Below are positions 1,190 to 64,000 of a stretch of 64,000 bases of DNA, piece after piece. The DNA is from Psammoneis japonica. Taxonomy: Eukaryota. The stretch lies in assembly GCA_008632985.1 (NCBI GenBank), contig QPGO01000008.1, positions 662,979 to 726,978 of the forward strand, in the 5' to 3' direction. The notes beneath the pieces are model-generated. The model worked only from the letters and a program-made list of their open reading frames with translations, made no database searches and had not been told where the DNA came from. The position numbers and the translations under genes were made by a program. Position 1 is the first letter of the stretch; every line of letters starts with the position of its first letter.

Positions 1190-3285
1190 TTCAATTCCAC
1201 GGTGCTTCTGTGACTAAACAAGGGTGACCTGCACACTGCTGCTGACAGAGACTGCATGCGTCAGTGTTGTTGCGGAGAACTTTTGCCCACAAAGCAGAGT
1301 CCCTGATGGGACAATTGATTTGCCTGCAACAGAAAGGCCATGCAACAATCAATCACCCCCTGGCATTGCTTTGAGCAGGACATCCCTGTCCTCTGTTGTC
1401 TGATGCTGCTCTCCAGCCTCCTCATTCTTGAACCAATCAAAGAGTCAAATGCCATCATCAGTGCTGATTGCACTTGTGTGGCATGAAGTTCACACATGTT
1501 CTGAGCCTGAAATTTGTCAGGCTTCTTGAAGCCAATGAACAATCCATGTTTTCCAACACTGCAGCCCTTGCATTTGATGCTCGCATTTGCTTTGTCAACA
1601 CAGCCATTGACAGAGAGTGCAGCGCTCTGATCAATGGTCTCCCTGGAAAGGTGGGAGGTCATGTGCTGTCTGGCAGGTGCTTCATTGACCAGGAAACACT
1701 GCAACAACAAAGAGCCCATGCTGCACAACTGTGATTGGGTTGAAATGGAAGTGTGACAATGCATGTGAAGAAACTCAGAATTGGTGGTGGAGCCATCTTT
1801 CTGAAGCCACCAGAGCCTGCCATTTTGTGGGGCAGTTGACAAAGAGCTCCGCACAAAAGAAATTGTGATGAATTTTGGAGCTTCTGCAGGGCTGGGCCTT
1901 GCATGGCAATCAGAGAACAACAAGACAATCTTTTGGACATGTCAGCAAAATGATCAAGAATGCCAACAACAACCTGCTGTCAAGAGGGCTCCCATCTTTT
2001 GATGGGGCAATCTTGTCAACTTGGCTGGCTGCACACCAGCATGCTGCAGAGAGACAGAAAAGCTGTTCCTGGGGCAGCCTGGATGTCAGCAGATCTGCAT
2101 CTGTGCACAGGCAAACATGAAGACAAGAGCAAGAAACAGCCTCCTCAAACATGTCAGCAAACTCCTTTTGAGAAGCAGCGCAAAAAGGCGCGCTGCTTGG
2201 CAAGATGGCTTTGATGCAAAAAAGCCAGGGATCTGCACTGAAGCTGACAGTGGATGGCTTCATGGGAAAGCAAGGGAGAGCACACAAAGAATCACCCTGA
2301 CATGCTGTGACAAAAAGAGATTGGAGAGATTTTTTTCAGCAGAGTCTGCTTGGTCATGAGTTTGGGTCATTTTTGTGCAGCGCAACAGCAGCCAGTTGTG
2401 AAGCACTGCTGTCGCTTCAGCAACAACACTCACAAAAGGTCAGAGAACCCAGCTCTGCAGCAGTTTTTTTTTTGCAGTGGGGGGCAAGGCAACAACAACA
2501 ACCACCGTGGAAGCCCGCAGGAACACAAAGCAGTGGCGCAGCAGATGTGGCAACATGGGGCCAAGAAACATGCGCGCTGTGGTGTTTGGCATTTTTTCGA
2601 CATTGTCCTTTGCTCCCAGCAATGATGACAACAATGCCAGTGCAGTGCCAAGCACTCCAGAGAGTCTGCCGGGGTGTGCAACATCAAGCACCCCTCCCTG
2701 GCAGCAGCTGCAGCCCCCCGAGCATCGTCATGAGTTGAGATGTGGTGTGGCTTGTTGAGAGTCTGAAAAGAAGGTGCTTCTTGCAGCAACAATGTCAAGA
2801 AAAGCAGTTGCCAACAAAACCTTCCCAGTGGACTAAAAGCAGCACATTCTGAGCTGCTCAAATGGGTGGGTCACACCCTCTCCCTCTCTCTGGCGGTGTG
2901 CGGAAAAAAAAGAGCTCTCTCCACAGCACACGGCAGCGACCACCCAGGTTGTGGCTGCCAGCATGAGCAAGCTTTGAAAACAGAAGGTGGTCATGGCCAC
3001 CAACAGCATCTTTTGTGCTCCCATCACCAGAGCAGCCATTGCTGGTTTTTTGCGCATCTTGCTCGCCCCGTTCGTCATGGTGGCTGGGCAAGGCGGGCAA
3101 AAAAAAGTGGCGCACTTCTTGTGCTCAGCTTGTGTGTGTGATCACTTTCTCTGCCTCCTCTTGTCATTCAGAGACACACATGTTTGATGCATGTGCGTCA
3201 TCAAAGCTTTCCAGCAATTCTTCATCCAAAAGATGTGTGCAGTTGGCTGTTTGAGGCTTTGTGTGAGATGTGTGCAGGACACTCA
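1190..3285. other. TpA/CpG-depleted, TpG/CpA-enriched domain 1 (degenerate element or gene relics)
   Basis: Only two TpA seen in ~2.1 kb (1215 and 2834, both TAA). ORFs lack Tyr (e.g. 1261-1923, 220 aa, no Y) and are rich in C/H/Q. Flanks have normal TA/CG content. Confidence 0.9.
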
Positions 3286-3600
3286 TCTATCTTCCGCACG
3301 ACGTCAAGACAACGAAGTGGAATTGTCCGTCCGCGAATCTTGCAGAGGTCTCACCACGTGCTTACCTATAGGTTTTGTATAGATAATAGAGAGTACGCTA
3401 TCGGTACGTACCGGCAAGGCCTTTCGGCATAACGCGGATTCCAGATTTTTCGGATTTGGCGTTCGCATCTCGCATCATCAGCTGACTGCCATCACAGCGT
3501 ACTGTAGTCACAAAAAGAAGACAAAACTACGGAGGCGTGTGTGTCGATCATCTCTATCATAGAGCTTCTTTCAGCCATCGTTATTGATTCGTTTGCCATT

Positions 3601-6723: not shown

Positions 6724-7293
6724 AGTAGTCTCTCCTCACTTGTTTGCCAGCAGACACAACTGCATGCGAGAATTAGACTCATTCTTGCCGCTTGAATAGT
6801 CGGTTATCATGTGGAAGCACCGCTAGGGGAGAAATGCAGGGCTTGAGCACGTACGTGTGACTCTTGAACGAAGCTGTGGTGAAGGTGAACTCTCAGTAGT
6901 GCACTCTGGAGGCCTAGCTAGTCTGCCAGTGATCAAGATTGCCCAACATCACCCTTATTGACAATACTTGGTGCACAAGTGTACTAAATGTACGTTACCA
7001 TACGTCTCCTGTAGGGTATACTCTCTAGCTTCTGAACCCTGTAGAGAGAGGAGGGTGCTGCATCAATGTTGCATTTTTAAAACGATGTGGTCTCATCCAT
7101 AGTTTTCGAACTTGGGTTAGTGACATGGTGGGCCCCTCACTAGCAGTAGTTAGTAAGGCCCTCTACTCTTAGCTTAGCAGTAGAGTACCGGTAGGTGCCC
7201 TACCGTGCGTACTGTACAATACAAGGAAATAATGACCAATTTATCTGCGACCAAGACTCAATCGAGACTGGCAGACTGGCAACCTCGAATTGG

Positions 7294-7900
7294 ATGTCAG
7301 AAGAAAACAATGATCAACAGTGCAATGACGACGACGACGATGACCACAACCACAAAAGCCAGGACACCGCAGATGCCAAAACCTCGAGAAACACGTCCTC
7401 TGATGGGACAAGCTTTTCATGACTAAGATTTAGATGCAGCCAGACTTCACAGCACAGCACTCTTTGTCTGGATCCATGACTCTCCCGCACCCTTGCTCCC
7501 ATTTTTGACAATGCCTTTTAGAGACAAATGTTGAATGCACAGACAACAAGTGACGCTTTTTAGTGGAGGGCCTCTTTTGCAAATGATGGGTTGTGCATGG
7601 GTTTAAAACACCCAGTGCTTCAGAGTCTGTTGTGTGCAATGTCAACCCCCAGAGCTGCAGTCTTTTGCAAGTGACAAACTTTGAACCACCAGCTCTTGGT
7701 TGATGCTGCAAGTTTGCAGTGCTTCTCTGCCCACAGCTCTTCACAGCACATCTCTGATGGGGCCTGCAGCAAAGAATCAGTGCAAGTCTGGCACACCCTG
7801 CCAAGATCTTCCCAACTTGTGCAATTTTGAGACTGCACACTTGATGGCCACCTCTTCAGACTTGAGCATCCTCTTGCCCTGCTTGTCAAGGATTGAGAGT
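7294..7900 (+). pseudogene. Gene relic running from unmutated sequence into the hypermutated domain
   Basis: An ATG-started acidic N-terminus (MSEENNDQQCNDDDDDD) ends at TGA 7420. A protein-like frame from 7434 to ~7900 is interrupted only by TGA codons (expected from CGA) and contains no Tyr. Confidence 0.4.
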
Positions 7901-7906
7901 GCTCTT

Positions 7907-7930
7907 TGTGTGTGTGTGTGTGTGTGTGTG
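7907..7930 (+). repeat. (TG)12 microsatellite
   Basis: Direct reading of the sequence. Confidence 0.9.
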
Positions 7931-10900
7931 CAGTGGAAACAAGAGCTGCTTTTTTGTGAAGTGAGTGACCCCTGTCATTGCATGGTCTGCCATTCAGTGC
8001 CAAAAAAGCAAGGCTGCTGAGGATGCACTGTGTGCTGCATTTGCCACCATTGACAGCTGGCTTGAAGAGCCAGGAGATTTTTTGCCAACATGGCAAGTGC
8101 TTGTGATGGTGAAGCCCTTGAGTGTCATTCATTTGATGGTGCACCATTTCTCTTGCCAAGCACTTGTTTCTTTGTTGGTTTTTTCATCTGCGGCATTGCC
8201 CTGATCCAGCCACAAACTTCAAGAAGAGCAGTGAAAAATTTCCTTTAAGAAGCCCTTTCACTGACATGAGAAGAGAGAAACCCCAACAACCTCAAATGAC
8301 AGTGTTCTGCAGCATTGCTTTGTGCTCACTTTTGTCGTTTTGCTGTCATTCCACTCAGCACTGAAGGGAAAAAATGCAAAAATGGCGGGCATTGTCACCC
8401 AGTTTGTTGGTGGCTTGAATGTGACAGCTCAGCTGCTGTTTTGGAAAGAGTGCAGGTTTGTGTGACAATGCATTGTTTGGAAACCAGCCCAGCCAAGGGA
8501 CAGTTTTCTGCTGGAATTTGTGAATGATCAAAGCCATGTGGCACCACAGCACTGGCACCTTCAAGAACTTGGTCAACCTTGACGAGTGGCTGGGCATGAC
8601 AAAGTTGGCTCACATGCTGGACACCAGCAGCGCAAAAGATCAAGCTGGCTTGTGCATGAAATGAGCTCCCAGTGTCCAAATGAGCACATTGTTCATCTGT
8701 TGTGAAGCTGGCTGCATTGACTTGAAAAGAGCAGTGCTGAGTGCCCAACAGAAAAATGTCAAGCACGTGCAAAGGTGGGTTTAGAGAAATGCAGACAGGA
8801 GTTGATTGCCACAAACCCATCGCCATCTCTGAGCTCATTGCTGCCAGACTTGGAAAAATCATCTGAGGCATCACTGTGGCAGGCATTTTCAACCCTCTCC
8901 TGCATGTGTTGGTGCTGGAAGAGCAGGTGATCATTGCTGGGAACAGCAGTGACATCTGGTGGCAATTCCAAAGCTGGAAAAGGTTGGATGAGATCAAAGT
9001 CAGCCACAAAGAGGAAGAGATGTTGCAGCAAAGAAACTGGAAGGCCCTCTTTTACAGTCACCCTGCTGGCATTTGTTTTGTCTTGATGAAAAGAAAACAG
9101 GCTGCACTGCAGGTCTGAAACAAACTGTGCAACAGCTTGATTGAAAATCTGAGCTCAGGGGAAAATGGACTCAAAAGGTGCAGATTCTTTGAGCCAAAAG
9201 CAAACATCCTCTTCAAGGTGTCCTTGGAATTTTAGAGCATTTGCCATGACAACTCTTCTGCGGGAGTTCTTTGGACATGGACATGATCATGTCAGAGTGC
9301 GCATCACCATGATCAAGGTGGCCTGTCTCACAGTGAATTTTGACCCTCTTCACAGGTGAAATTTTCACACCATGACAACCAGTTGTGTGCATGGCAAAAA
9401 TTTGTCAACCGTGACAGATGAGTTTTTCCTTGTGAGAGTGCCCAGCCACCCTCCATCCCTGCAAAACCTGTGTTGTCAATGTGATGCTTTGTTTCATTGC
9501 TCAACTTCAATTTCAACAATTCAACGCATGCGGCATGGTGTGCACAACAGTTGTCATCAGTGACCGCCAATTTGGTGCTTTGCCATGTGCTGCATTTGAT
9601 TTTTGCAATTGGATGGGCCACATCAAGGTGCGCCATTCCTTTGCCAGACTGCTGTTGTGTTTTGTGCCAGCTCATCTTTGCTTGAGCTGTCTTCTTCCTC
9701 ATGGTCTTTTCCTTTTTCCTCTTCCAAGTCATTCTCATCATTGCCAGAAAGCTCCAGAGCATTGCCAGCATTTTTGCCACCCTCTGCACTGGCTTTTTTT
9801 GTGATTGTGGCACTCTTGCCCTTTTCATTGCTTGGTTTCTTCTTGCCATTGCTGTGCCCCATGTTGAGCTGCACACCTGGCTCACTTCTTGATCTGTCTT
9901 CCTCAACATCTCAGCATTGCAGAGCTTGTTGAATTCCTCTGTTCCTGCATCTCCCCACAAGTTGCACTGTTTTGTGGGGTTGGTGTGAGCAGGCACAGGG
10001 TTTTTTTGTTTCCTTTTCCCCCCTCATTTGCAGCTCCCTGCTGGATTTTCTTCTCCTTCGCTGCCTTGCATTTCCAAATTTTCCAGCAGTTTTCCAACGT
10101 TGACAGCCCCATGACCTCATTGCTTGCTGCAGCCATCTCTGTGGCCTTGCTGTTTCCCAACTCCAATTTCCTCTTTTTCCATGCCACAGTGCTCTTGGAG
10201 AATTTTGGCACATTGTTGCAGAACCAAGAGCACGCTTTCTTGTTGGTCTGCTCTTCACTCACAATGGTTTCCACAAGCTTGTCCTGTCAAATTGGCATGA
10301 GTGGTTCTTCAATGGGCCTCATGTCCTTCTTTCTCTTTTTTGTTTTGTTTTGTTTTGTTTGGCTTGTCCTCTTGCCATTGATGGGCTCCCACCACCCTGG
10401 TTTCACCCACACATTTCCTGAGCTTGTTCTGTTGTCAGCACAACTTGTGCAAATGAGTGCTGTGTTGGCAGCATCATCTTCAAACACCTTTTGGCAACAT
10501 TTTCTGCACAACTTGCTGCTCATTGCATTCTTCATTGTCACTTGGGTGACGGCATTCCTTTTTGCGCTGACTGCATTTGGGGCACACTTTTTTGCCCAGT
10601 CTTCCCATGTCCCCCCCAGTCTTGCTTGCTGAATTTGCCACTGGCTGTGTTCTTGCACATCAGGCATGACACCTTTCCACCACTCAACACGTCTGCCTCA
10701 GTGAGGAATTTTGCTTTAAGAAAGAGTTCTCATCTCTGAGCCACCTCTTCAACTTTCATTGGTGTCCTCCACTTGCTTCTGTCCACTCTCATGATGCCTC
10801 TCTAACCTTGGGCTGAGTGGCCCTTTTCTCAGGCTTGTCCTTCCTTTGCTTCAGCAGCATTCTTGGCATGCTGGTTTTGCAGGTTCTAAGTTGTTGATGA

Positions 10901-12024
10901 CTTTTGTTGCAGCAAATGGGTTGCAGGTCTTGTCAAAACTGCCTGCCATTTTCATCTTAATTCAAACCACTTTTTTCCCTGAATTTGTGAAGTTTCAAGA
11001 TTGAATGTTCAGCTCAATCACACCACTCAACTGCCTGAAAACATGCAAAATTAATCAAATTACACACACGTGAGCATTTTGAACCACAAAAGCACTCATT
11101 TGTCAATGAGTTCAATGCACACATGTTTCCTGCCACAGCTGATTTCTTGCGTCATGTCTCACTGACATCATGCCACTGGGGAGTTGCTTCTGTTTAAAGA
11201 GCAGCTGTGGCTGAGATGGCTCATTGTGCTCCCTGTGCATCACACACAGAGTCTCAGTTGGAGCTTGCATGTCATGCAGTTGCACCCACACTGCTTGCTT
11301 TTTGCTGTCTCCAGTGATGGCAATTTTTTTTTGTGCCACAGTGGTGGACATGGGTTCTTTTTTGCACATGTGGGCTCCAGCTCTTCTCTTCTGTTTTCAT
11401 GTTGTTTTCTTCTTCTTTCAGCAACCTCTCACAGCCAAGTTAAAAACTTCCCTTCCACCAACAGATGCATCAGTTTCTCTGAAGCCTTGCATGACCTCTC
11501 AGCCTGTGTGTTTCTGTTGAGAAAAATGCACCTTTTCTGCTTGATGATGTCCATGAGCTCTGTCAGTCAAACAAAGGGCCCTTGGTCCTGGAGATCAGTG
11601 TGAGCAGCTCATCCTTTGCTGGCACCTTGATGTCCTCCATGTCTGTGCACATGCACCACTTTAGTGCACACTGCAAAGGCACCACAGATCGGAGGTCCCA
11701 CAGCTTCACAGGTGCAGCTGCAGTGTCCACAATGTGTGTTGCCAATGTGAGAACAATTGCCACAATTCCCCTTTGCCAGAACCAAATTGTTCACCACATT
11801 CTCTGTTGCCCCAAACTTGATGAGGCAGCAAAGAACATGCTTTTCCCACAGATGCTTGTGTGCTTTGTCCTTGTGCAGGTGAGCTCTCTGTGCCACCAAT
11901 TTGTCTGGGTTCAGATCATGGCACAAGTGATCTGGAAAGCTCGCGTGGCATGTTTTGCACAGCAGTCTCAAGACCAAAATGTGTGCCACAAATGGTCACA
12001 TCCCCAACCACCAGAGCTGTGCTG

Positions 12025-12240
12025 TCTCCCTTGCTTTCCACTTGCTCATGTGCCAAGTGAAAAATTGACGGCACAGTGTGAGATGCTCAAATTGTCTGGC
12101 AAACCCAGAACTGGATGATGAGTGCAAATCTTTTCATCCTGCATTGCTTCTCCCCTTGCTTTCCACTCATTTGTGCTCCAATTGAAAAATTGATGGCACA
12201 GTGTGAGACAATCAAATCATCTGGCAAACCCAAAATTGAA
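12025..12240. repeat. Diverged direct duplication, ~90 bp unit, ~125 bp spacing
   Basis: TTGCTTTCCAC...TGAAAAATTGA.GGCACAGTGTGAGA...TCAAAT..TCTGGCAAACCCA starts at both 12031 and 12156. Confidence 0.9.
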
Positions 12241-15200
12241 ACTTGCTTTTCACTTCATGCAGATGACTCAAGCTTTGTGGTGGTTTGTCCATCCTCAAAA
12301 TCATTGATCACAGTGCACGCAAAATCATTGTCACCTGCAAAAGTTTTCATTCATGCAATGAAAACAATGCAACCCATTCTGTGCCCTTTTTGTGTTGTGT
12401 TTCCAGCACTGTTGTCTGAATTCACCCACTTTGCATGACCAAACCAAGCAACAATGCCACCTCCATTTTAGCTTCATGCAATGCACAACAGGCTCTTGTC
12501 ACAACATGAACAATTGAATGACTGACCAAAGGAAAACAACCAGCCCATCATGTTGCAAAGAACAGACATTCTTGTGCACACTCAGCTGCTTCCATTGCAA
12601 TCCCCATTGTGACTCTGTGGCTTGTGAGAGGGTCAGCTCATTTGGTCCAGCACCAGCTGTGCCATTGTTGCTGCATCTTGGTGTGGTTGTGGTGGGTTGA
12701 ACTTTTTCAGCAAGGAGCAATGGTCATTGAAGCAGCAGAGAATTGGAAGAACTTGGCATGTTTTTTCAGCTGTCACAAACATCCGACTGGCTTTGTCAGG
12801 TGTCAAACAAGGCTGTTGGGGTGCACCTGAGTTGCCCCTGTTTGAGGATGCGGCGAGCCTCCGCCAACACTGACACATTGCCAGATGCCATGGGAGGAGC
12901 TGGGTTCGAAGGAGCAAAGATCTTGGCCTTCTTGTGAGGGACAGTCAAAGAAGGCGCTCTTGTGGAACAAAGAAAAAAGCAGAAAAAAGCAATTCACAAC
13001 AAGACTGAGGGACATGGGCATGCTCAGGTGAGCAAGTGTGCTCACCAGCATCACACAAACAGGTGCCATCTTCATGCTTCCTTCTGGCCCCATGTTCAGG
13101 TTTTGATTTGCAGCCTCATTTGTGTTTGTCTTCAAAGTGGTCAGCACTCTGGTCACGCATTCTGCATCAAAGCATTGTGAGCTGCGCTTGTTGCTGCACC
13201 CGGGGTGGGTGCCGGGATGCTCCTTTGGACAAAATGCTTCCCAAATTCTTGCTCCATGGCATTGCCATCCTTCATCACCAGCACCCAGGTCCTTTGTGTC
13301 ATGTGCTTTGTCTCCCCCAATGCATGCCTCAGTGGCTTCCTCCTCTGACTCAACTTCATTTGACTCACGAAGGACAAGAAAGCTGTTGAAAAATGTGTGC
13401 CACCCCTTCTGGGTGTTGGCCTTCCAAACAATTTGCAAGAGCCAACAACTTGTGTCCTTTTGCTTGCATGCCATGCAACACATGACCATTCCAGTGACAA
13501 AGCAGGCACCATGAATGTCATGAATGTGCTTGGTGGTCATCATTCAAGGTGCAAAGAGATTGACACACTTCAAAAAACAGAAAAAAGGTGTGCCTGTTGG
13601 CGGGGCATTGCACCATTGGCACACAAACTCAACCATTGCCTTGATGTTGCAGTGGAGGTCACAACAAAGCTGCCTCTCGTCCTTCCCCATCTCAACAGGT
13701 GTTGCAAAGAACTTTGGAGCATCCTCCAACTTTCTGTGTCAAAGAACACAGTCACCCTTTGCTTGGCGGGATCTGTTCATCCCCAAACCACAAGCATTGA
13801 TGCAGGACCACATGTCAGGACATTGGAGAGATTTCCTTGCAGTGTTGTTGGTGCACACATGACTTTCACAACACGTGGAACACAGCAAAGCTTTGGCTTG
13901 TGGCAAAGGAAGGGAAGAGCCAGGAACTCTGGAGAGGGCACCCAATTTGCAAAAAGTGCTTTTTTTAGAGGCACACACTGCAATTGCTTTTGAGCTTCAA
14001 TCAAAACAACTCCATTCCAAAGCCATTGGCAAGGTGTTCTGTGTCATCAAAATCAACACTTGTGTCATTGAAGACAAGTGAGGGATTGGGGTTGACCTCA
14101 TTGGCTGGTGGGGCAAAGTTGTTCACTGCTGTGGCCAGTTGTTGATTGGGGACAATGTGCAGAATGCACACAAATCACAAGAGTTCACACTCTTGCCTTT
14201 CAATGTTTGGGAAGAGAGGAGGTTGTGCTGTCATGAAGTGCACGCAAATTGCACATGTAAAAAAATTCAGAAAAAGCCATGGACCAACATGCTCTGCAAA
14301 TCTGGGAAGAAGGAAAAAATGAGTGTGCGCACTGCTTGGTGGCAGCAATTTGGGTGTGCAGGGGCAATGTGATGAGTGCACAAGAGTGGGAAGGACAAAG
14401 TCAAAACCAAGTTAAGCTGAAAAGCAACAAAGAAACTGGTGCAGGCATCACAAAATGGCAACTTTGCAAATGGAGTTGACCGTTGCATGTGCACCGCTGA
14501 AGCCTGTGGCTGTTGGGAAAGTTGACATTCAGACAAACAATGAAGCATGACAAACAAAAGCACTCATTGTTCTGTGCTGTCACTCTGCTTTCACACATTT
14601 GATTGGCAATTAAATTTGACAAAACTTGTGCAAATGATTGCAAATGAAAGTGAAAACCCCTGTGCCACAACCTCTGATGGCATCAAGTTTTCCAGCATCA
14701 TGCACCCAACAACTCCGGATTTTGTGGACCATGGCAGTGGCTGCAGTTTCTCCATTGGTTGAACAACACTGCTGAAGATGACTTCCCACATTGCATGATG
14801 CACGCACACTGCAAAGAGGCTCAGAGTGCACCACACCAAGATCTGTGACACTCAAAACAGCAAGCGTCATCAATCATTTCTTCACAATGCTGTGGCAACA
14901 AGCACAAGGCTCTGAAGCAGATTTGGCACAACAGCTGCCATGCATTTGACCACACAAAGGTCCTGGTTTTGTGTGAACAGCAGCTGACCCAAGCAAGAGG
15001 AGATGATCTGGTGCTGGCAGAGTGCTGCTTGCTTTGAAGGATTTTCTGCAGACATGCACACCATTGTCTTTAGCTTCAATTCAAAATTGGGGATGACCCC
15101 AGAGAGAGATGGCTGTTTCTGTCAAAGGTGCAAAAAATGCTCCAAATTCTTGATGCTCATGATGAGTGAAAGTTGTCTGCAAAAAACAACACAAGTGTGC

Positions 15201-15689
15201 TGAGTGCCAAATTGTTGAGACATTGTTTGCACTTTGTTGCATCAGTGTCTGACAGCCCACTTGTGCTCTCTCATCCCCTCATTGTTCTCGCCATGCCTGC
15301 ATTGCAGGTGAAAAAAAAACACCAACCAACTCTCAACTCAGAGACCCCTGAAGTTCCTCTCATTGAGGGAGCTGATGCAATGCAGTCTCTTGCACAACTG
15401 AGCTCAGCAAAGATGTGTGTTTGAGACACCTTCTTGTCAACAATGTGTCAGCTGCAGAAAAAGACCAAGGTCATCTTCTCTGTCATGCACGCTCTGCACT
15501 GGCACACAAGATCAAGGCTGCCCAGAATGGGGGCTGCAAGAAACTGTGCCTGGTGTGCACAGGAGAGCACCCGCTTGATGGCAACCTGGTGTTGACTGAC
15601 AAACCACCATGCATCAAGCCCCCCCCCCAACTTTTGTCAATTCTCAAAGAGAGAGGCTGCTGCACACATGCCCAACTTCCAGGGAGAGA

Positions 15690-17460
15690 TCAAGGATGTT
15701 TGCTTGTGGTTTGAGAAGGAAATGTTCCATCTGAGTGTGGTTTGTTGTTGTGAACTGAGATTTTCAACTGGGCAATCACAGCTGGTCTCAAATCCATTTC
15801 ACAGCCAGTTGTTTTCACCATGACAAGATGAGTGCAAGGCAAGAACTGGCTGTGAAAGAGGGGCTGCCAGTCTTGTCACTCTGTCCACCAAGCCCCTTGA
15901 GCTTTTTTGTCTCACCCAACCTTCATCAGCTTCAACATCTCTGGATGATGTCGCTGTGCAATCTCAGATGATGATCCCCACCACTCTTCTTGTGATGGGC
16001 AGGAGAGGAGTGAAGAGCCCTGCACAGCAACCCAAAAGATCAGCGGAGTTGGATTGCAACAAATTTGACCATGGCAACAGTTTTGTGGCAGTCAATTTGG
16101 CCAATGTTGCTCAACAGTTGCCTCTGAGTGCACCTCATGTTGCTCATCAGATTCTCAGCATGAGTCCTTCCAAGCCAATGCAGCCAATTTTGCTGAGGAG
16201 GATGAGCAAGAGCATGTGCAGCTGGACACTGGTGCAGACATTTCATGTTCACCTGAGAGCTTTTTCTGCCAAGATTTTTCCCATGCTCTCTCAAAGCCAA
16301 CCCAGCTCTTGATGGCACAAGTGCTTCTGTGCACAGCATGGTTTTGGACATCTGTGAGGTCTGGTGGAGAGCTCGCTTGATTGGTTGCATCAATGTTTGG
16401 ACATGTTGTGATCCATGTGATTGCTCAATGCAGACTTCACAAAAATGGCAGTTGGCTCAAGGGCTGCAGTTTAGAGCACATTTGGCACCTCCAAGTTTGT
16501 TGCATGGCATTGTCCATGGAAAAGTCAGGGTGTTGCCATTTGCAGGCAACTGATCAATGGGAAATGTTGTGCTGACCCTTTCACACCCCCAACTTCAGTT
16601 GAGACACTTGCTGATTTGATTGGCAGATCAAAAGAGCAGGGCCTGCTGTCCTTTGGCAAAGCGCGCAAGGCTGTCCTCATCACTGTGGGCATGGCTGAGG
16701 TGCATCATGATGATCAACATTCTCTCCTTCATGAAGAATGCAAGGACTCCTGGCTCCTTGAGTGTGTCAGAGCTGTCCTTTTGAAGAGCTCATAAAAGCA
16801 AGCTCCCCAGTCCAGCCCCTCAAGACTGGTGCCAAACACCTTCTTTGGCATCAGCAACTTGGTGTTGTCCAAGTGACTGCTCTTGCTTGTCTGATGCTCG
16901 CAAGGATGTTGACGGTGCTCTCAGTGGGTTTTCAGTTTGCTTGCGGCACTTTGCCTTTGGACTGACAATTGTTGCCCTGCTTGTGCCCACACCAAGGAAA
17001 TGAAGGAACCTCTGCTTGTCCCAACACTGCCATGACTGCCATCCAACCACGTCAAGGCTTTGCTGCAGATTTTCTCTTTTGTGGTGTCAGCAGTTCAAAG
17101 GACTTGGAATGCATGGAGGATTTTGTGCTGGGTTGAGCGGCAAAACTTGTTGGGCAATTGTGCACAATGACTGCCATTCAAAAAACAACTTCAGGAGGAG
17201 GCAGCAAATTGCACCCTCACAGGCTCAGCAGCTCTTCAATGGTGGCCATCATTTTGTTGCACCACACCACGCCCTTCTCTGGAAAGAATGTCTCTGGCCA
17301 GAAACACCCCATGCTGGAGGGCAGTCATTTGCCCGTTGGCAGGAGCACTGTCTGCTGAGCAATGCTCATGGGCAGCTGATTAAATTTTGGCTGTGTGCTT
17401 TTCATTGCTGCTGTTTTCACATCAGAAGCACAGTTCCTTCCCAGTGCATTCTGCGCCCCC
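15690..17460 (+). mobile_element. Degenerate Ty1/Copia (CoDi-like) LTR retrotransposon gag-pol fragment: protease, GAG-pre-integrase, integrase
   Basis: Motifs occur in Copia order: possible decayed zinc knuckle ~15696-15738; QLDTGADISC aspartic protease 16219-16248; LLWHQQLG 16840-16863; CPAC 16973-16984; PRQGFAADFLFCG (first catalytic D) 17047-17085; FWLCAFH 17385-17405. Many frameshifts and TGA stops. No RT or LTR recognised. Confidence 0.8.
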
Positions 17461-18155
17461 CCCCTCCCATGCACAGAAACAACAAGAGAAGTCAGACAGC
17501 TGTTTCTTGGCACAAAAAATTTGCAGAAAATTGCTGGGACAGAAGGGCCATTTTTGGATTGTGCTTTTGGCCTGGCCTTTGCTGCTGCTGATGACTTGTG
17601 CGTGCCGCCGACCGCTGGTTTGTCAGAAGTTGAGCACGTGGCTGGCACTGGCACGCTGCATTGTTTGGTTTGCTGAGGGCTGCCAGAAATAAAACACTGG
17701 GTGCATTTGTCACACCTGCCAATGGGGTGAATTTCTTCAAGGCCAGTGATGCAGCAAAAGAGCCACAACAAGTTTGTGGCTGTCCAGGTGCGCCGAACTT
17801 TGAGAGACTCTGTGTGCTTGTGCTGGGGCATCGTTCTCGGAAGAATTGCAAAAGGTCAAGATCCCAAATTGAATCTGCACAAAGCTCAGTCAGATGCCCA
17901 CAAAAATGTGTGAGGCAGAAGTTGTGTTCTTGAAAGTCACAGCAGCAAGAAGTGTTTCATTCACTCTTGTGTGCCGCGAGGTGTGCGAACCCTTAGCATG
18001 ACCACAGGCTCAAGTTCAAGCCGAATCTCATACAGTGCGGTACGAGCTCCGAACTCCAAGATTTGATCCAATACATCTGCGTGCAAGCACGCGCTTCGCG
18101 CGAAAACCAGCTCAAGTGTACGAACGAAAACAAAAAATAATTGAGAAATGGAAAG

Positions 18156-19572: not shown

Positions 19573-20955
19573 ATGACGAAACTGAAGGCCAAATACGATT
19601 TTTCGAGGGGACATCCAAATCCATCGCTTCTCCCGGTGAAGGAGATGAAACAAATAATGGCAGCTGTCGCAAACGGGAACACTAGCATCGATGGTATCGA
19701 AAAGGCTGACGACGAAAATGATAGGTCTACATTGTGTTTGAATTACGGCCACGAAGCAGGCTCGCCAGATTTGTTGAAGGAGATTCGATCTTTTCTTGAT
19801 AGGCAAACAATAAGTAGCGACGAGTATGATGGAGTAGAAGAATTCGCCGAAAACCAACTCTTTGTCACCAATGGTGTATCCCACGGAATTGAGCTCATTT
19901 GTTCAACCTTCACCTCTCCCGGAGACGTGGTGTTTGTAGAACGTCCCACCTACTTTCTTGTAGCCGACATCTTTCGAAGCCACGGGCTCAGAGTGAGTGG
20001 CCTGCCAATGGTCCCAACCGAGAACAATGCTGGTGCTGGTGCTATTGACGTATCGCGTCTGGTGGAGATGGTGGACCATGGGGAGCTAAATGCGCCTTCA
20101 ATGATTTATCTGATTCCCACACATCAGAATCCAACGGGGCATACTTTGTCTGTGAAAGATCGAAGGATCCTTTCAGACTTCTCGGAAAGACACGGCGTAT
20201 TGCTGGTCGCTGACGAAGTTTACCATCTATTGGATTGGCGAAATGAACAGGAGAATGGACGAAGGCCGGCAAGAATGGCAGCTTTCAACAAACCTGGAGC
20301 AAAAGAGACGTGTGGCTCCGAAAAGCGGCAGGGTTGCTGTCTATCTGTGTCCTCCTTTACGAAAATCTTTGCGCCTGGTGTTCGATGTGGTTGGATAGAA
20401 GCTCCAGCATCCATAATATGCTCCATCGTGCAGCACGGTTATATTCAAAGCCAGGGAGGTGTAGCACCTTTTGTTGGGGATCTACTCATGTTTCAAGCTT
20501 TGAAGATGAGATTGGTGGACGGCTTTCTTCGCAAGCTTAGGGAGCGCTATTCAGAGCGCGCTCATCGCCTTTGCGCTACTCTACAACTTGATGATCGAAT
20601 AAGTCTTCCAAATGGACCCCCCACTGGTGGCTACTTTCTATGGATTGAATTTCCTCGTTACGTTGATGCGGAAGATTTCCTTCGGTATTGCGAAGAAGGC
20701 GATGCTTCGAAAATGGGGCTGCGATTTCGGCCAGGGACAAAATGCGATGCGTTTGCTAATGAGACCCAAGGAAAGAGCCAGGTCGAAAATGATGCCGTAA
20801 GTGCCGTTTCAATGTCCTCTTTCCGGTCATGTGCAAGGTTATGCTTTGCTGACCTTGACGATCAAGATTTGATAGAGGGCGGCCGTCGACTTGTCCGGGC
20901 ATTCGGGATGTACATGAAAAGTTTGCCTGATAAAGACAAGTCAAGCTCCAACTGA
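19573..20955 (+). CDS. PLP-dependent aminotransferase class I/II (2-aminoadipate transaminase/MocR-like)
   Basis: Motifs GHPNP, LFVTNG, ERPTY, IPTHQNPTG, ADEVY, SSFTKIFAPGVRCGW (PLP lysine), GGYFLW and RLCF. Confidence 0.92.
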   Translation: MTKLKAKYDFSRGHPNPSLLPVKEMKQIMAAVANGNTSIDGIEKADDENDRSTLCLNYGHEAGSPDLLKEIRSFLDRQTISSDEYDGVEEFAENQLFVTNGVSHGIELICSTFTSPGDVVFVERPTYFLVADIFRSHGLRVSGLPMVPTENNAGAGAIDVSRLVEMVDHGELNAPSMIYLIPTHQNPTGHTLSVKDRRILSDFSERHGVLLVADEVYHLLDWRNEQENGRRPARMAAFNKPGAKETCGSEKRQGCCLSVSSFTKIFAPGVRCGWIEAPASIICSIVQHGYIQSQGGVAPFVGDLLMFQALKMRLVDGFLRKLRERYSERAHRLCATLQLDDRISLPNGPPTGGYFLWIEFPRYVDAEDFLRYCEEGDASKMGLRFRPGTKCDAFANETQGKSQVENDAVSAVSMSSFRSCARLCFADLDDQDLIEGGRRLVRAFGMYMKSLPDKDKSSSN

Positions 20956-36681: not shown

Positions 36682-39515
36682 ATGAAGTTCCGCAGAGCAA
36701 CACTTGCCCTTGCCTTATGCCTTGGCTTTGCCGCAGCCTTCACGTGAGTTTGAAGTTTGCGTTTGACTGTCAATTTACACGATGAGACGTCTACTAGAGT
36801 AGGAATATGATTCGGTGATCCTCGACTTCGCGGAACAAAAACACGCAGCGTGTCAGTCGCGTACATTGTGAAACCTTTGTGAAGGCGGAAGATTCTGTGA
36901 AGTATCCAGATTACTTGTTGCCGACTTATTCGTACTCACTTTCTCAGATTGCTGTAATCACTGCATCGCTTCCAGGGTGCCTTCTTTTGGTAGCCGCCAC
37001 AATGCAGCCGTCGCATCTAGCATGCTCATGTCAACAACAGCAGAAGTGAACGGAGTCGAGACTGTGAGTGGTTTCATGATGGATGTTTCACATTTTTCTT
37101 TCAGATAGAGACTTACATTTGGTTCTTTATCTCACCTTTGTTTAGGAAACGGTCAAAGAGACTCCTTCTGTCATGAGGCCACCGATTGACATGCCTTGGG
37201 GAAGCATCTCGGAGCAAGTAAGTGCTACTTAAGTTTAAAAGATGTTTTGGCGATTTCTGTGTGCTTAAAATTATTTTAATTTTATTCTCAATCAACAGCT
37301 TCAGGAAAAGTTTGGCTACAGTGCTGAAGAAGTTGCAGCATACAACGACGAACTTGAAGGCGACAAGTATGCCTTGTTGAAGCTGTACAAGGCGATGACC
37401 ATGGCGAGAGGCTTTGAAAACGCCTGTAACCAGGCGTACATGCAGGGAAAGATCAGAGGTTTCATGCACTTAGACAACGGTCAAGAAAGTATCCCAGGAA
37501 TGGTGGATTACGCCATCAAGAACGATGACAAGAAGTACTCTTACTACCGCGAACACACCCACGCGATTGCAAGCGGCGTAGATGCGGGCGCCGTCATGGC
37601 AGAGCTCATGATGAAGGATGGGGGCACATGCCGCGGTGCCGGTGGATCCATGCATATCTTCGACAAGGAGACCTACTTTCAGGGAGGATGGGCCCTTGTA
37701 GCGGAACAACTGCCATATGCTGGCGGTGCAGCCAAGTCTATTTTGCTCGACCGGAAGCTTGGTCTTTCAGACGACGAGAAGATCAACAAGCAGAACGTTG
37801 CCCCTCCTGAAGATGATGACCGCATCTCGGTTGTGTTTGTAGGAGAAGGAGGATCTCAAAACGGTCGCATGGCTGAGTTGCTCAACTCTGGTGCCAAGGA
37901 TAATCTTCCACTTCTCATCATCACCATCGACAATGGACGTGCCATCAACACTTATACACCGGATATCGCCCAGAACAGCTATGTTTTTGAGCAGGGGTCA
38001 CATTATGGCGTCCCGGGTTTGCTTGTCGACGGTTTGAACGCTGCAGATGTTGCAAAAGGTGGAAAGGCTGTCATTGACTACATTCGCAAGGGAAACGGAC
38101 CAGCTATTCTACAGGTACACACTTATCGTTTCAACGGGCACTCCCCGGCCGACCCTGAGCACGAACGTGGCCGCAAGGACGAAAAGGCGTGGGCTCGTGC
38201 AGAGCAGGATCCTTTGAAATCCTTCGAGGACCAGTACATTTCAAAGGGTGTTTTCACCGAAGACGAACTCAAAACGGCAAGAAAGGAAGTGCTCGCTGAA
38301 GTAAAGGAAGCCGTCAAATTCGCTGACAGCTCGCCAATGCCCCCAGTTGAGCTGGCCAAGGAACTTGAGTACCCAGATGTACCTGACACTGACTACAATC
38401 AGAAGCCAGCTCCCGAATTCGCTGCTGAGGTCAATGCTCGTACCATCAGCCCGGAACAAATGGCCACCGTTACCGCTCATATTGAAGACCTTCGCGCCAA
38501 GGCCGAGGCCGGCGAAATTTCCATCGGCGATGCCATCAACCTTGCCATTCACGAGGAAATGCTTCGCGATCCAACCACCACCATTCACGCCGAAGATCTC
38601 CAGGCTGGTTCTTCATACGACATTCCCAAGCTGACACAGCAGACCTACGGTCAGATTCGTGCTGCAGATGAAATCATCGACGAAGGTCATTTTATTGGTA
38701 AAGCTTTGGGCGAGGCTATGAACGGATACCGCCCAATTGTTGAGTTGATGAATACCAACTTCGGAATCTACGGTATGGCAGAGATCAGTTCTGCCGGCAA
38801 TACCTATGCCACCACTGGTGGCCAGTTCGACATGCCCATGACAATTATTGGCGCTGGTGGAACCGCTCCTAACCAGGCGCTCGGTGCCGAGCACAGTCAG
38901 CCTTTCCACGCCTATGTGATGGGTATTCCCGGACTCAAGATTTGCACGGCGGCTTCCCCTGACGCTGCGTACGGTATCACCAAGAGTATGATCCGCGACA
39001 ACGGCCCATGCTTTCTCTTTGCCCCTGTAAAGATGATGAAAGAAAGCAAGGGTCCTGTTGATCTCGGTCAATGTATGCCACTCAACAAGGCTGCTCTCTT
39101 GCACAAGGCGTCTGAAGATACTGTCAAGGCCGGGAATGCTGTCACTGTGTTGACCTACCTGCACGGTGTCAAGGAATGCCAAGCTTCAATTGAAGCCATC
39201 CAAGAGGAAGGATTCGACATTGACTTGATCGAACTTCGTACGTTGAAGCCGTTGGACATGGACACAATTTCCACAAGTCTTGCTAGGACCAACAAGCTTT
39301 GCATTTTGGACGAGTCCACCAAGAGTGGAGGAGTTGGTGCGACGATCAGCGCTCGAGTGTCTGAGGAGCTGTTCGATCTCCTAGACTCGCCGGTAAAGAG
39401 GCTTTGTATGGACGATGCACCAGTTCCGTATGCGTCCAGCATGGAGGAGGCTGTTGTGAAACGGGGAAGTGATTTGATCGAAGGCGTTTTTGATCTTTGC
39501 TCTGGAAACTGGTAG
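36682..39515 (+). CDS. Plastid-targeted pyruvate dehydrogenase E1 alpha-beta fusion, copy 1 (three short 5' exons, long exon from ~37299)
   Basis: MKFRRATLALALCLGFAAAF presequence. Alpha motifs GKIRGFMHL..GQE, YREH, GGSMH and TYRFNGHS.AD. Beta motifs RPIVE, AEHSQ, LRTLKPLD and PVPYA. Confidence 0.93.
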
Positions 39516-39729
39516 AAAATTCAGTGTGTTTAGAATGGTATCTTATGATGCTAGCTCAACGAGTGACATCCGCTAGCCCTATTTCCATAATATTATAGAA
39601 GTTTTTCATACTGTTGTAGCTATCTGTGGCATCAACTTCAAGCCTCTGGAGCACCACTGGAAGGTCGGAAGCTTCCGCAAAATTCGTACCGGTGACAGAC
39701 GTGTGGAGCAGGGAACAGGGCGGTAGGGG

Positions 39730-63599: not shown

Positions 63600-64000
63600 A
63601 TTCTCTTCCAAAAAAAAAGGGTGTCAATCATGTCTTGCAGTCTTTGTTTGTCACTGTGCTTGCCAGCAGTTAGTTTTACATGAAAAATTGACTGACAAAA
63701 CCTGCAAAACACTGAACCTCAGGAGATTGTCTCAATTTGCTGAGGTGGCCAGATGATCACAAACACCATCAGCTGACTGTCAGCCAATTGCTGTCAACTC
63801 TCTCTCTCAGGTCCTGCAAGTGCCACATGCAACACTGTCAGATGACAACAGCCACACCACTCCTCCATCTTCCATGCCACTCACCCAAAGTGCAAAACAC
63901 AACAGCCACAGGTCTGAACTTGTGAGCATTTGCAAAGTGCAGTGAACAAACACAATTCTGATAAAATGTCCGCACCGCAACAAACCTGTGTCAAGATTCC
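63600..64000. other. Start of TpA/CpG-depleted domain 3 (continues beyond the window)
   Basis: After ~63600 only three TpA remain (TTAG, TTAC, ATAA) and only two CpG. TG/CA-rich like domains 1 and 2. Confidence 0.75.

What the first reader, a model, noticed from the sequence alone, without database searches (positions are those of the whole stretch)
7425..17990. Candidate new RIP-like genome-defence process: joint erasure of TpA and CpG to TpG/CpA in TE-containing domains
Seen: across ~10.5 kb TpA falls to ~25-30 occurrences (several hundred expected), CpG is sparse, TpG/CpA dominate, and the borders are sharp (~100 bp) against normal genes. The same signature recurs at 1190-3285 and from 63600. 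Known: CpG->TpG/CpA is the 5mC deamination footprint, diatoms methylate TEs at CG, and fungal RIP converts CpA->TpA and so creates TpA. Inference: near-complete TpA loss is not explained by 5mC decay and is the reverse of RIP. It needs a targeted A:T->G:C process at TpA, such as adenine deamination to inosine, decay of a modified adenine, or error-prone repair confined to silenced chromatin. It would destroy Tyr codons, while the CpG arm creates TGA stops, permanently inactivating TEs. I know of no described system with this dual signature but cannot exclude a prior report.
Basis: partly seen in the sequence, partly recalled or inferred. Interest (0 to 1): 0.93.

Follow-up and report, generated by a model that had tools for sequence, protein, structure and literature searches.

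The report
Diatom DNA blocks stripped of TA and CG
In this diatom genome, sharply bounded blocks of silent DNA have had nearly every TA and most CG steps changed into TG or CA, which points to a targeted point-mutation process unlike fungal RIP or ordinary methyl-cytosine decay.

Summary
In 7425-17990 TpA is 27 observed against 724 expected and CpG 80 against 596, while CpA and TpG are about 1.8-fold over-represented and G+C is unchanged. The same holds at 1216-3287 and from 63678 to the window end.

It is not a long-read or assembly artefact: contigs of a DNA run at about 59-fold word depth carry the sequence with 0-1 differences.

It is a mutation footprint, not an intrinsic composition.
- Normal window DNA converted in silico reproduces the block's word spectrum (r 0.96 against 0.73).
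- Copies differ by adjacent TG/CA swaps at homologous sites.
- A second genomic copy of a piece of a normal aminotransferase gene has all 6 of its TA/CG sites converted and nothing else changed in the stretch listed.

It is not classical RIP. A 2.2-kb gene duplicate is untouched, single-copy DNA inside the block is converted, and TpA is destroyed rather than made.

No transposon protein was found, only multi-copy pieces. The enzyme is unknown. Nine literature searches found no report of this in diatoms. The host is a Thalassiosira-like centric diatom.

The parts
1216..3287 (.). Converted block 1 (2.07 kb) lying between stretches covered by spliced RNA-like contigs
   Evidence: Within 1190-3285: TA 2 against 130 expected, CG 31 against 131. 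Within 1216-3287 only 1 TA remains. 3-mer word spectrum: r 0.908 with in-silico converted normal DNA against 0.675 unconverted.
7425..17993 (.). Converted block 2 (10.6 kb), the finding itself
   Evidence: TA 27/724, CG 80/596, CA and TG about 1.8. Contigs of run X1 at word depth about 59 carry it with 0-1 differences. No Pfam family in any of six frames.
63678..64000 (.). Start of converted block 3, cut by the window end
   Evidence: TA 1 against 22 expected, CG 2 against 16, TG o/e 2.72, CA 1.54.
7243..7424 (.). Left transition zone of block 2: no TA, but 10 CG
   Evidence: TA and CG positions; sequence.
17425..17993 (.). Right edge of block 2, where CG partly survives (14 CG) while TA is gone (1 TA). 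The same is seen at 2716-3287 (13 CG, 1 TA).
   Evidence: 500-nt bins; positions.
9339..10672 (.). Piece present in several diverged copies elsewhere in the genome
   Evidence: Summed word depth 121-242 against about 59 in the flanks. Many contigs are 85-95% alike.
12674..14674 (.). Multi-copy piece with a core at about 13888-13938, at roughly 150 times single-copy depth
   Evidence: Depth 208-679 per bin and 8787 at 13903. Loose ends at 13888, 13920, 13938 and 13949.
12028..12238 (+). Old tandem pair (86 nt, spacing 125) whose copies resolved the same sites differently
   Evidence: 16 differences in 86 nt: 4 adjacent TG/CA swaps and 1 CG/TG. Random placement gives a mean of 0.42 swaps, P = 0.00018.
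19803..19835 (+). Stretch of the intact aminotransferase gene (19510-20955) that has a converted second copy elsewhere in the genome
   Evidence: A second X1 contig (depth 37.4 beside 52.8) differs at 19812, 19815, 19818, 19821, 19826 and 19835. These are TA>TG twice, TA>CA twice and CG>TG twice, which is all 6 TA/CG sites of the stretch and no other listed change.
37296..39516 (+). Negative control: one arm of an inverted 2.2-kb gene duplicate (other arm 50866-53086) that is not converted
   Evidence: 165 differences in 2221 columns, 117 of them at third codon positions. TA o/e 0.52-0.56 and CG 0.88-0.91 in both arms.

Best explanation
The blocks are ordinary nuclear DNA of a Thalassiosira-like diatom. 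They hold repeat fragments and unique non-coding sequence lying between expressed genes. After arriving at their present places, they went through a context-specific hypermutation.

In that process each self-complementary pyrimidine-purine step (TpA and CpG) received one transition and ended as TpG or CpA, a dead end that is no longer a target.

Shown:
- The conversion itself.
- Its near saturation.
- Its restriction to TA and CG.
- A random choice of strand at each site.
- Its occurrence after duplication of the affected sequences.
- Its action on a copy of a host gene.
- Its absence from gene space, even where gene space is duplicated.

Inferred:
- The target is a chromatin state (silent, CG-methylated, non-transcribed blocks whose edges lie next to active genes), not sequence duplication.
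- The chemistry is hydrolytic deamination on either strand of duplex DNA: C or 5mC to U or T at CpG, and A to hypoxanthine (read as G) at TpA.
- The activity prefers TCG over GCG and is poor on TTAA and TTAG.
- The CpG arm may be plain or enzyme-assisted 5mC deamination. The TpA arm needs an activity not yet described for nuclear DNA.

Expected consequence, from the genetic code and from common knowledge of signals:
- Tyr codons become Cys or His, and CGA becomes TGA.
- TATA-type promoter and AATAAA-type signals are lost.
- TA and TTAA transposon target sites are lost.
- Whatever lands in such a block is therefore disabled for good.
For: 1. Magnitude and borders.

2. Conservation of pyrimidine-purine steps. 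CA+TG+TA+CG is 2512 in the block against 2538 expected at the normal rate. The gain of 885 CA+TG matches the loss of 911 TA+CG (arithmetic).

3. The window's normal DNA with every TA and CG changed at random to TG or CA reproduces the block's word spectrum.
- For 3-, 4- and 5-mers, r is 0.957, 0.941 and 0.919, against 0.733, 0.694 and 0.647 unconverted.
- On TA/CG-free words alone, r is 0.894, 0.850 and 0.801 against 0.648, 0.610 and 0.557.

4. Independent resolution in copies.
- The tandem pair has 4 TG/CA swaps (P = 0.00018).
- Against dispersed copies there are swaps at 9679-80, 14069-70 and 14087-88, plus CA/CG at 10186 and TG/TA at 12902.

5. The converted copy of the aminotransferase gene piece: 6 of 6 TA/CG sites changed, 0 other listed changes, and 4 TG/CA steps shared by both copies.

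6. The order of TG and CA along the block is random (runs test z = 0.12), so there are no strand-coordinated tracts.

7. Single-copy and multi-copy parts are equally converted (TA o/e 0.047 and 0.018; CG 0.125 and 0.158).

8. The survivors are context-specific. 23 of 28 remaining TA lie in TTAA or TTAG, against 12% of TA in normal DNA. Remaining CG are enriched in GCGC (4.65-fold) and depleted in TCGA (0.19-fold).

9. Duplicates in gene space are untouched.

10. Loose-end consensus sequences of other copies elsewhere in the genome hold 0 TA in 135 nt (my count on table 7).

11. Literature context.
- Repeats of Thalassiosirales are heavily CG-methylated, in blocks up to 30 kb with a binary pattern (PMC5124317 and PMC11842555, passages read).
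- Diatoms carry DNMT4, a relative of fungal RID, of unknown function (PMC9998398, passages).
- Stramenopiles carry deaminase-SAM-Tudor proteins (PMC3239186, passages).
Against: - No genome was available, so the genome-wide extent and the link to repeats or chromatin could not be measured.
- The only run that holds the DNA may be the source of the assembly, so the read support is not independent.
- The direct gene-copy evidence rests on one contig of about 95 nt. Differences within 30 nt of its ends are not listed.
- The direction of change could not be confirmed from homologues, because the stretch is a variable loop.
- The tandem pair also carries 7 ordinary differences in 86 nt, so that pair is old and says nothing about speed.
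- Adenine deamination of nuclear DNA as a natural process is not established.
- The CpG arm alone would need no new process.
- No transposon gene was recognised, so 'defence' is inferred from the effect, not from the target.
Confidence: 0.6

Rival explanations
1. Two unrelated passive decays in very old methylated heterochromatin. One is spontaneous 5mC deamination, which removes CpG. The other is a weak, general instability of TpA that had time to reach saturation. No dedicated machinery is involved.
For: - The CpG arm looks like 5mC decay. CG survivors sit in G+C-rich contexts (GCGC 4.65-fold, TCGA 0.19-fold), as expected if local melting limits deamination (general knowledge).
- TpA is already low in the normal genome (o/e 0.60).
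- The tandem pair is old (7 ordinary differences in 86 nt).
Against: - TpA loss (96%) is more complete than CpG loss (87%) and persists where CpG survives.
- No spontaneous process known to me makes TpA as mutable as methylated CpG.
- In the converted gene copy, 4 of 4 TA and 2 of 2 CG changed while none of the other 21 central positions did. This implies roughly a 20-fold or greater rate ratio (my estimate).
- The easily melted TTAA is the best survivor, the opposite of a breathing-limited chemical decay.
- The rest of the word spectrum is still that of normal DNA.
Confidence: 0.15
2. Classical RIP-type process: duplication is sensed by homology and both copies are mutated, here with a different dinucleotide preference, perhaps through the RID-like DNMT4.
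For: - Parts of the block are multi-copy.
- A duplicated gene piece is converted.
- Centric diatoms carry DNMT4, related to RID (PMC9998398, passages).
Against: - The gene copy in the window is untouched although its duplicate is converted.
- A 2.2-kb inverted duplicate at 92.6% identity lying 11 kb apart, and a 208-nt tandem triplet, are not converted.
- About 7.2 kb of the block is single-copy at 85% likeness or more, yet equally converted.
- RIP makes only C:G to T:A changes and creates TpA (PMC2621366, start of the abstract in the listing). Here A:T to G:C changes are needed and TpA is destroyed.
- The random strand order differs from the strand-coordinated tracts of RIP (recalled).
Confidence: 0.1
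3. Intrinsic composition. The blocks are foreign or mobile DNA (a virus, or an element under selection to avoid TA and CG words) that arrived already free of TA and CG.
For: - Sharp borders.
- No similarity to anything in the protein libraries.
Against: - The word spectrum equals converted host DNA.
- The three blocks share no sequence.
- Copies differ by TG/CA swaps, which need a TA or CG ancestor.
- A host gene piece shows the same conversion.
- There are no terminal repeats and no coding periodicity.
Confidence: 0.05
4. Editing at the RNA or cDNA stage of retroelements (ADAR-like A-to-I, APOBEC-like C-to-U), followed by integration of the edited copies.
For: Both are deaminations. Multi-copy pieces exist.
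Against: - There is no strand asymmetry. CA and TG are near equal in every 500-nt bin and their order is random.
- No reverse transcriptase, integrase or LTR was found.
- The tandem copies resolved sites independently in place.
- AA is not depleted (o/e 1.31), although ADAR also edits A after A (recalled).
Confidence: 0.04
5. Sequencing, base-calling or polishing artefact caused by modified bases in these blocks.
For: The blocks are likely to be heavily modified DNA. The only run that holds them may be the source of the assembly.
Against: - Contigs of 7422, 6512 and 4981 nt at word depth 59-68 match with 0-1 differences across both blocks and their normal flanks. Such exact words at that depth indicate accurate reads (inference; the library type is not on record).
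- Unrepaired lesions would give mixed TG/CA or TG/TA calls, which are not seen.
- Errors would not leave one clean transition per site.
Confidence: 0.03

Closest known systems
Repeat-induced point mutation (RIP) of Neurospora and other ascomycetes
   Same: A permanent, dense, transition-only hypermutation confined to defined DNA segments with sharp edges. It ruins coding capacity and shifts dinucleotide frequencies.
   Different: RIP changes C:G to T:A, mainly at CpA, and so creates TpA and lowers G+C (PMC2621366, start of abstract). Here TpA is destroyed, A:T to G:C changes are needed, and G+C is unchanged. RIP is triggered by duplication and hits both copies. Here gene duplicates are spared and single-copy DNA is hit. 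RIP is known only from fungi.
CpG-directed RIP-like hypermutation of basidiomycete transposons (TpCpG targets; Horns et al. 2012, PMC3318451, listing and start of abstract only)
   Same: C-to-T changes at CpG in repeats. TCG is also the most efficiently removed CG context here (TCGA survival 0.19).
   Different: It has no TpA arm and is described for transposon copies, not for whole intergenic blocks that include unique DNA.
Decay of methylated CpG by 5mC deamination (vertebrate genomes, methylated repeats)
   Same: CpG goes to TpG or CpA, symmetric on both strands, in methylated silent DNA. Diatom repeats are CG-methylated.
   Different: It does not touch TpA. Here TpA loss is the stronger and sharper arm.
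Editing of retroelements by APOBEC3 or ADAR, fixed in genomes (recalled; no paper read)
   Same: Enzymatic deamination used against mobile elements. A-to-G clusters can become fixed in DNA.
   Different: It acts on single-stranded cDNA or double-stranded RNA and so is strand-biased and tied to retrotransposition. Its context rules differ (GG/GA for APOBEC3; A after U or A for ADAR). Here the conversion is strand-random, limited to TpA and CpG, and made in place.
Very-short-patch repair and CTAG depletion in enterobacteria (recalled; no paper read)
   Same: A TpA-containing word is lost by T-to-C conversion linked to the handling of T:G mismatches at methylation sites. TG- and CA-containing words gain.
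   Different: It is genome-wide, limited to one tetranucleotide, weak, and bacterial. It is not domain-confined or saturating.
Polymerase-eta WA-motif mutagenesis in somatic hypermutation (recalled; no paper read)
   Same: A-to-G changes at TA arise as collateral of processing deaminated cytosines. This would link the two arms.
   Different: The WA motif includes AA. AA is not depleted here (o/e 1.31 against 1.14 in normal DNA), and no other substitution types are enriched.

Membership tests
RIP (repeat-induced point mutation) | Only C:G to T:A transitions; G+C falls | tested here: not met
   TA>TG and TA>CA changes are A:T to G:C. G+C is 47.5% inside against 48.0% outside.
RIP (repeat-induced point mutation) | CpA/TpG consumed, TpA produced | tested here: not met
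   CA o/e 1.85, TG 1.81, TA 0.04. This is the reverse.
RIP (repeat-induced point mutation) | Triggered by duplication; both copies mutated; unique DNA spared | tested here: not met
   The 2.2-kb duplicate at 92.6% identity is unconverted. The window's gene copy is intact while its second copy is converted. Single-copy bins are converted. Older duplicates below 85% likeness cannot be excluded.
RIP (repeat-induced point mutation) | Depends on a RID-type DNMT and a sexual phase | not testable with these tools
   No genome is held. The literature says only that centric diatoms carry DNMT4, related to RID.
Passive 5mC-deamination decay | Loss confined to CpG; products TpG and CpA in equal amounts | tested here: not met
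   Met for the CpG arm (CG 0.13; CA 1161 and TG 1244). But TpA is lost as well, and more fully.
Passive 5mC-deamination decay | The region is CG-methylated | not testable with these tools
   There are no methylation data for this organism here. Related diatoms methylate repeats.
Retroelement editing (APOBEC- or ADAR-type) | Strand-asymmetric clusters within a retrotransposed copy | tested here: not met
   Runs test z = 0.12. CA is about equal to TG in all 500-nt bins. No RT, integrase or LTR.
Polymerase-eta type error-prone repair | A mutated in WA (both TA and AA) | tested here: not met
   AA o/e is 1.31 in the block against 1.14 in normal DNA.
Transposable element | Transposon proteins, terminal repeats, or multiple copies | tested here: inconclusive
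   Multiple copies: yes for 9339-10672 and 12674-14674. Proteins: none. Terminal repeats: none. RNA-gene origin: none.

The most novel reading that the evidence does not exclude
Centric diatoms have a chromatin-directed DNA editing defence. A deaminase-type activity is recruited to silent, methylated blocks and deaminates adenine at TpA as well as cytosine at CpG, on both strands of nuclear DNA, until no TA or CG is left. Candidates are the stramenopile-restricted deaminase-SAM-Tudor proteins noted by Iyer et al. 2011, or a DNMT4/RID-like enzyme with a partner. This would be the first natural adenine-directed hypermutation of a eukaryotic genome, and a defence that marks territory by chromatin state rather than by sequence repetition.
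Probability: 0.3. Interest if true: 0.95.

Novelty: new variant of a known kind. Interest (0 to 1): 0.86.

Why it matters
Targeted point mutation as a defence against selfish DNA is known only from fungi, and only as cytosine-to-thymine change. A second, independently evolved system in diatoms, with a different chemistry (it needs A:T to G:C change at TpA) and a different trigger (a chromatin block, not a duplication), would matter in several ways.

- It would widen the known ways in which eukaryotes disable DNA for good.
- It could explain why a large share of the repeats in big diatom genomes cannot be classified. One relative is reported to have 40% 'unclassified repeats' (PMC5124317, passage).
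- It would point to a natural enzyme that acts on adenine in double-stranded DNA, which is of direct interest for base editing.
- It would give diatom biologists a simple sequence signature for silent chromatin.

There is also a practical point. TA-free DNA has only TGA as a stop codon, so gene finders will call false long reading frames in such blocks.

Tried and rejected
**Genome**
- Whole-genome analysis: no genome is held.

**Protein and RNA identity of the blocks**
- Pfam on read-through translations of all six frames of both blocks, at E<=0.1: 0 families.
- Pfam on nine sub-frames at E<=10: only three chance-level hits (DUF5134, YrhC, DUF309).
- Word-based protein search with the ORF 13364-13993: none of 211 candidates scored.
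- phmmer of a 1000-residue read-through frame (12400-15399, minus strand) against 1.84 billion representatives: 0 hits. Only this one frame was tried there.
- My impression of a copia-type integrase tail around 13700-13950 (minus strand) was a recollection. No search supported it, so I dropped it.
- Rfam gathering scan and tRNA scan of 1-20000: nothing.

**Hidden repeats**
- blastn self-comparison, a purine/pyrimidine-alphabet comparison that ignores transitions and the repeat finder found only the 86-nt tandem pair inside the blocks.
- The three blocks share nothing.

**Other copies in public data**
- A degenerate 30-nt pattern from the high-copy core found 0 matches in metagenome contigs.
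- The aminotransferase query gave one distant, irrelevant locus, L001 (40% identity over 63 residues).

**Direction of change from homologues**
- In an alignment of the first 40 of the 120 listed homologues, the converted stretch falls in a variable loop (Tyr column: G in 34 of 40). This is inconclusive.

**Expression**
- No RNA holder was listed.
- Run X2 behaves like RNA: it has GT..AG joints, and its contigs lie on the flanking genes. It has no contig on either block. This blank is not used as evidence.

**Other checks**
- Coding periodicity is weak in the blocks (at most 3.8, against 5-7 in the lipase gene).
- No shared motif was seen by eye at the block borders.
- Earlier notes of this scan: nothing on this genome or on this sequence. 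The word search returned only phage cases with other patterns.

**Literature**
- Nine searches were run. No listed title or abstract start describes joint TA and CG erasure in diatoms or other algae.
- The library holds open-access papers and bioRxiv only, so a report elsewhere cannot be excluded.
- No supplements were opened.


Full report
**1. The observation**

Counts, for 7425-17990 (10,566 nt):
- TpA occurs 27 times against 724 expected from base composition (o/e 0.04).
- CpG occurs 80 times against 596 (0.13).
- CpA and TpG are raised to 1.85 and 1.81.
- G+C is 47.5%, the same as outside (48.0%).

The same signature is present at 1190-3285 (TA 2/130, CG 31/131) and from about 63678 to the window end (TA 1/22, CG 2/16). 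The rest of the window is ordinary (TA o/e 0.60, CG 0.97).

With a simple rule (TA<=1 and CG<=4 per 200 nt), 55 of 61 windows inside the blocks are flagged and 0 of 254 outside.

Borders:
- The right edge of the main block is abrupt. There is a TA at 17690, then normal density from 17994.
- The left edge has a zone (7243-7424) with no TA but normal CG, followed by a few TA up to 7604.

**2. Is the sequence real?**

No genome is held. One public DNA run, X1, holds 99% of the sampled words of 8400-18399.

Laid on window 1-20000, its contigs of 7422, 6512 and 4981 nt, at word depth 59-68, cover both blocks and their flanks with 0-1 differences.

Exact 31-letter words at that depth indicate accurate reads. 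The library type is not on record, so this is an inference. The run may also be the source of the assembly, so it is not independent.

Even so, an artefact limited to these blocks would have to mimic one clean transition at each TA and CG and nowhere else. I rate that at about 3%.

**3. What the host and the surroundings are**

The flanking open reading frames are long and eukaryotic:
- a class-3 lipase;
- a class I/II aminotransferase;
- two fused E1 dehydrogenases;
- a Kelch protein;
- an S9 peptidase;
- a JmjC protein;
- an amine oxidase.

The peptidase is 69-75% identical to proteins named from Thalassiosira and Skeletonema species.

A second run of the same sample, X2, behaves like RNA. 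It has GT..AG joints skipping 83-140 nt, and its contigs lie on the flanking genes.

**4. What the blocks contain**

Nothing recognisable as a gene or element was found:
- No Pfam family in any of six read-through frames.
- No homologue for an ORF or for a 1000-residue frame in 1.84 billion representatives.
- No Rfam family or tRNA.
- No terminal repeats.
- Weak coding periodicity.

The three blocks share no sequence, even in a purine/pyrimidine alphabet that ignores transitions.

Two parts (9339-10672 and 12674-14674) are multi-copy in the genome. Summed depth reaches 121-679 per bin and 8787 at 13903. Of 167 contigs laid, 139 are below 95% likeness.

So the blocks hold repeat fragments plus about 7.2 kb of DNA that is single-copy at 85% likeness or more. 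Both kinds are equally stripped (TA o/e 0.047 and 0.018; CG 0.125 and 0.158). 'TE-containing' is thus only partly borne out.

**5. Mutation footprint or intrinsic composition?**

Four lines of evidence point to mutation in place.

(a) The pyrimidine-purine steps are conserved.
- CA+TG+TA+CG is 2512 in the block against 2538 expected at the normal rate.
- The gain of CA+TG (885) matches the loss of TA+CG (911) (arithmetic).

(b) Converted normal DNA reproduces the block's word spectrum. I took the window's normal DNA and changed every TA and CG at random to TG or CA.
- r is 0.957, 0.941 and 0.919 for 3-, 4- and 5-mers, against 0.733, 0.694 and 0.647 without conversion.
- On words that contain no TA or CG, r is 0.894, 0.850 and 0.801 against 0.648, 0.610 and 0.557.

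(c) Copies differ in the way expected if each resolved the same ancestral TA or CG independently.
- The 86-nt tandem pair at 12028 and 12153 has 16 differences. Eight of them form four adjacent TG/CA swaps and one is CG/TG.
- Random placement of the same differences gives a mean of 0.42 swaps (P = 0.00018).
- Against dispersed copies there are swaps at 9679-80, 14069-70 and 14087-88, a CA/CG difference at 10186 and a TG/TA difference at 12902.

(d) The clearest case lies outside the blocks, in the intact aminotransferase gene (19510-20955).
- The gene is covered without difference by an RNA-like contig.
- A second X1 contig (depth 37.4 beside the main 52.8, so another locus or haplotype) differs at six listed places.
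- These are exactly the six TA/CG sites of 19803-19835: TA>TG twice, TA>CA twice, CG>TG twice.
- The four TG/CA steps of the stretch are shared, and no other position is listed as different.
- Read from gene to copy, this is complete conversion by one simple rule. Read the other way, it would be a partial, two-product change of 6 of 10 TG/CA steps.
- At the protein level it gives Ile>Met, Tyr>Cys and Val>Ala.
- Homologues could not confirm the direction, because the stretch is a variable loop.
- Differences within 30 nt of the ends of this contig of about 95 nt are not listed, so the evidence is short but clean.

**6. Properties that constrain the mechanism**

- The order of TG and CA along the block is random (runs test z = 0.12), and CA is about equal to TG in every 500-nt bin. 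Each site was therefore resolved on either strand independently. This argues against processive single-strand events and against RNA- or cDNA-stage editing.
- Each site takes one transition and then stops, as expected if the target is the self-complementary step itself.
- TA loss is stronger and extends further than CG loss. Near the right edges CG partly survives while TA is gone (17425-17993: 14 CG, 1 TA; 2716-3287: 13 CG, 1 TA).
- Of the 28 remaining TA, 23 lie in TTAA (10) or TTAG (13), contexts that hold 12% of TA in normal DNA. None lies in ATAC, ATAG, ATAT, CTAG, CTAC or GTAC, which hold 63%.
- Remaining CG are enriched in GCGC (4.65-fold) and CCGC (2.2-fold) and depleted in TCGA (0.19-fold).
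- The easily melted TTAA is the best survivor. This speaks for an enzyme with sequence preference rather than chemistry limited by DNA breathing.
- AA is not depleted (1.31 against 1.14). This rules out a polymerase-eta WA-type repair signature.

**7. The trigger**

- Duplication as such is not sufficient. The inverted 2.2-kb gene duplicate (37296-39516 and 50866-53086, 92.6% identical, 11 kb apart) has normal TA and CG. Its differences are mostly at third codon positions (117 of 165).
- A 208-nt tandem triplet at 29089-29713 is also normal.
- Duplication is not necessary at the level I can see, since single-copy DNA is converted.
- The blocks fill the space between stretches covered by RNA-like contigs and end within a few hundred bases of them.
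- Relatives have large, sharply bounded, heavily CG-methylated repeat blocks next to unmethylated gene-rich DNA (PMC5124317 and PMC11842555, passages read).

My inference is that the target is a chromatin state, not homology.

**8. Most likely mechanism**

All changes are loss of an exocyclic amino group: C or 5mC read as T at CpG, and A read as G at TpA.

The simplest account is deamination on either strand of duplex DNA in silent blocks, by one dual-specificity enzyme or by two activities. The CpG arm may be ordinary or DNMT-assisted 5mC deamination.

Candidates known from the literature are leads, not tests:
- the stramenopile-restricted deaminase-SAM-Tudor proteins and the LmjF36.5940-like deaminases (PMC3239186, passages);
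- the RID-related DNMT4, found in 23 centric and 8 pennate of 60 diatom species, function unknown (PMC9998398, passages).

An alternative chemistry is oxidation of the 5-methyl group of T and 5mC followed by mispairing. It is possible but has no support here.

My confidence levels:
- about 0.85 that this is a real, in-place, context-specific conversion;
- about 0.6 for the whole statement, including chromatin targeting and a dedicated TpA activity;
- about 0.3 for adenine deamination in particular.

**9. Comparison with known systems**

- It works like RIP in outcome: dense, permanent, transition-only inactivation of bounded segments. It fails every testable defining feature of RIP, namely base change, dinucleotide, effect on TpA and G+C, and dependence on duplication (see the membership table).
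- The CpG arm matches 5mC decay and the TCG-directed hypermutation of basidiomycetes (PMC3318451, abstract start only).
- The TpA arm has no counterpart that I know of or could find.

**10. Novelty**

Nine full-text searches returned only fungal RIP papers and diatom methylation papers.
- The Cyclotella methylome paper contains neither 'deamination' nor 'mutation' in its main text.
- The Thalassiosira rotula paper has no 'TpA'.
- The library is limited to open-access papers and bioRxiv, and no supplements were opened, so a prior report cannot be excluded.

I file the finding as a new variant of a known kind (targeted hypermutation of silent DNA). It has a 0.3 chance of being categorically new, as adenine-directed editing of nuclear DNA.

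**11. Verdict**

It is not established on transposon content, on likeness to RIP in its trigger, or on mechanism.

Interest is high because the signal is extreme, is internally validated by copy comparisons, and opens a directly testable question.

Noticed in passing
window 37269-39515 (+) and 50867-53107 (-): Inverted duplicate of a gene for a fused E1 dehydrogenase (alpha and beta parts in one 746-748 residue protein). The arms are 92.6% identical over 2221 nt, and 117 of 165 differences are at third codon positions, so both copies look functional.
   Followed up: partly
window 7425-17993 and 1216-3287: With almost no TA, the only stop codon left is TGA. The blocks therefore carry many chance open frames of 120-254 codons on both strands, which a gene finder could mistake for genes. 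None has a homologue.
   Followed up: yes
window 29089-29713: Tandem repeat of about 208 nt in three copies, 90-94% identical, with normal TA and CG content.
   Followed up: partly
window 3694-4442 and 18394-18535: Run X2 is labelled 'DNA?' but behaves as RNA. It shows five GT..AG joints skipping 83-100 nt in a gene at about 3.3-4.8 kb and one skipping 140 nt at 18394-18535. These give real intron positions for the flanking genes.
   Followed up: no
window 7141-7242, 3363-3409, 63362-63386: Just outside three of the block borders lie very TA-dense stretches, for example 19 TA in about 100 nt at 7141-7242. I saw no shared motif by eye. They may be terminator or promoter DNA or a boundary feature.
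   Followed up: partly
window 12020 and 7808: The run's own contigs differ from the window at 12020 (C in the run, T in the window, which is a CG/TG site inside the block) and by an 8-nt deletion at 7808. This may be polymorphism or an assembly error. The first is of the kind the process would produce.
   Followed up: no
window 7908-7930 and 10327-10373: A (GT)n microsatellite and a second simple stretch inside the block, where the contigs of the run break.
   Followed up: no
window 9743-11242: This part of the block is strongly pyrimidine-rich on the + strand (for example 181-182 T and 76-85 A per 500 nt), yet CA and TG stay balanced there.
   Followed up: no
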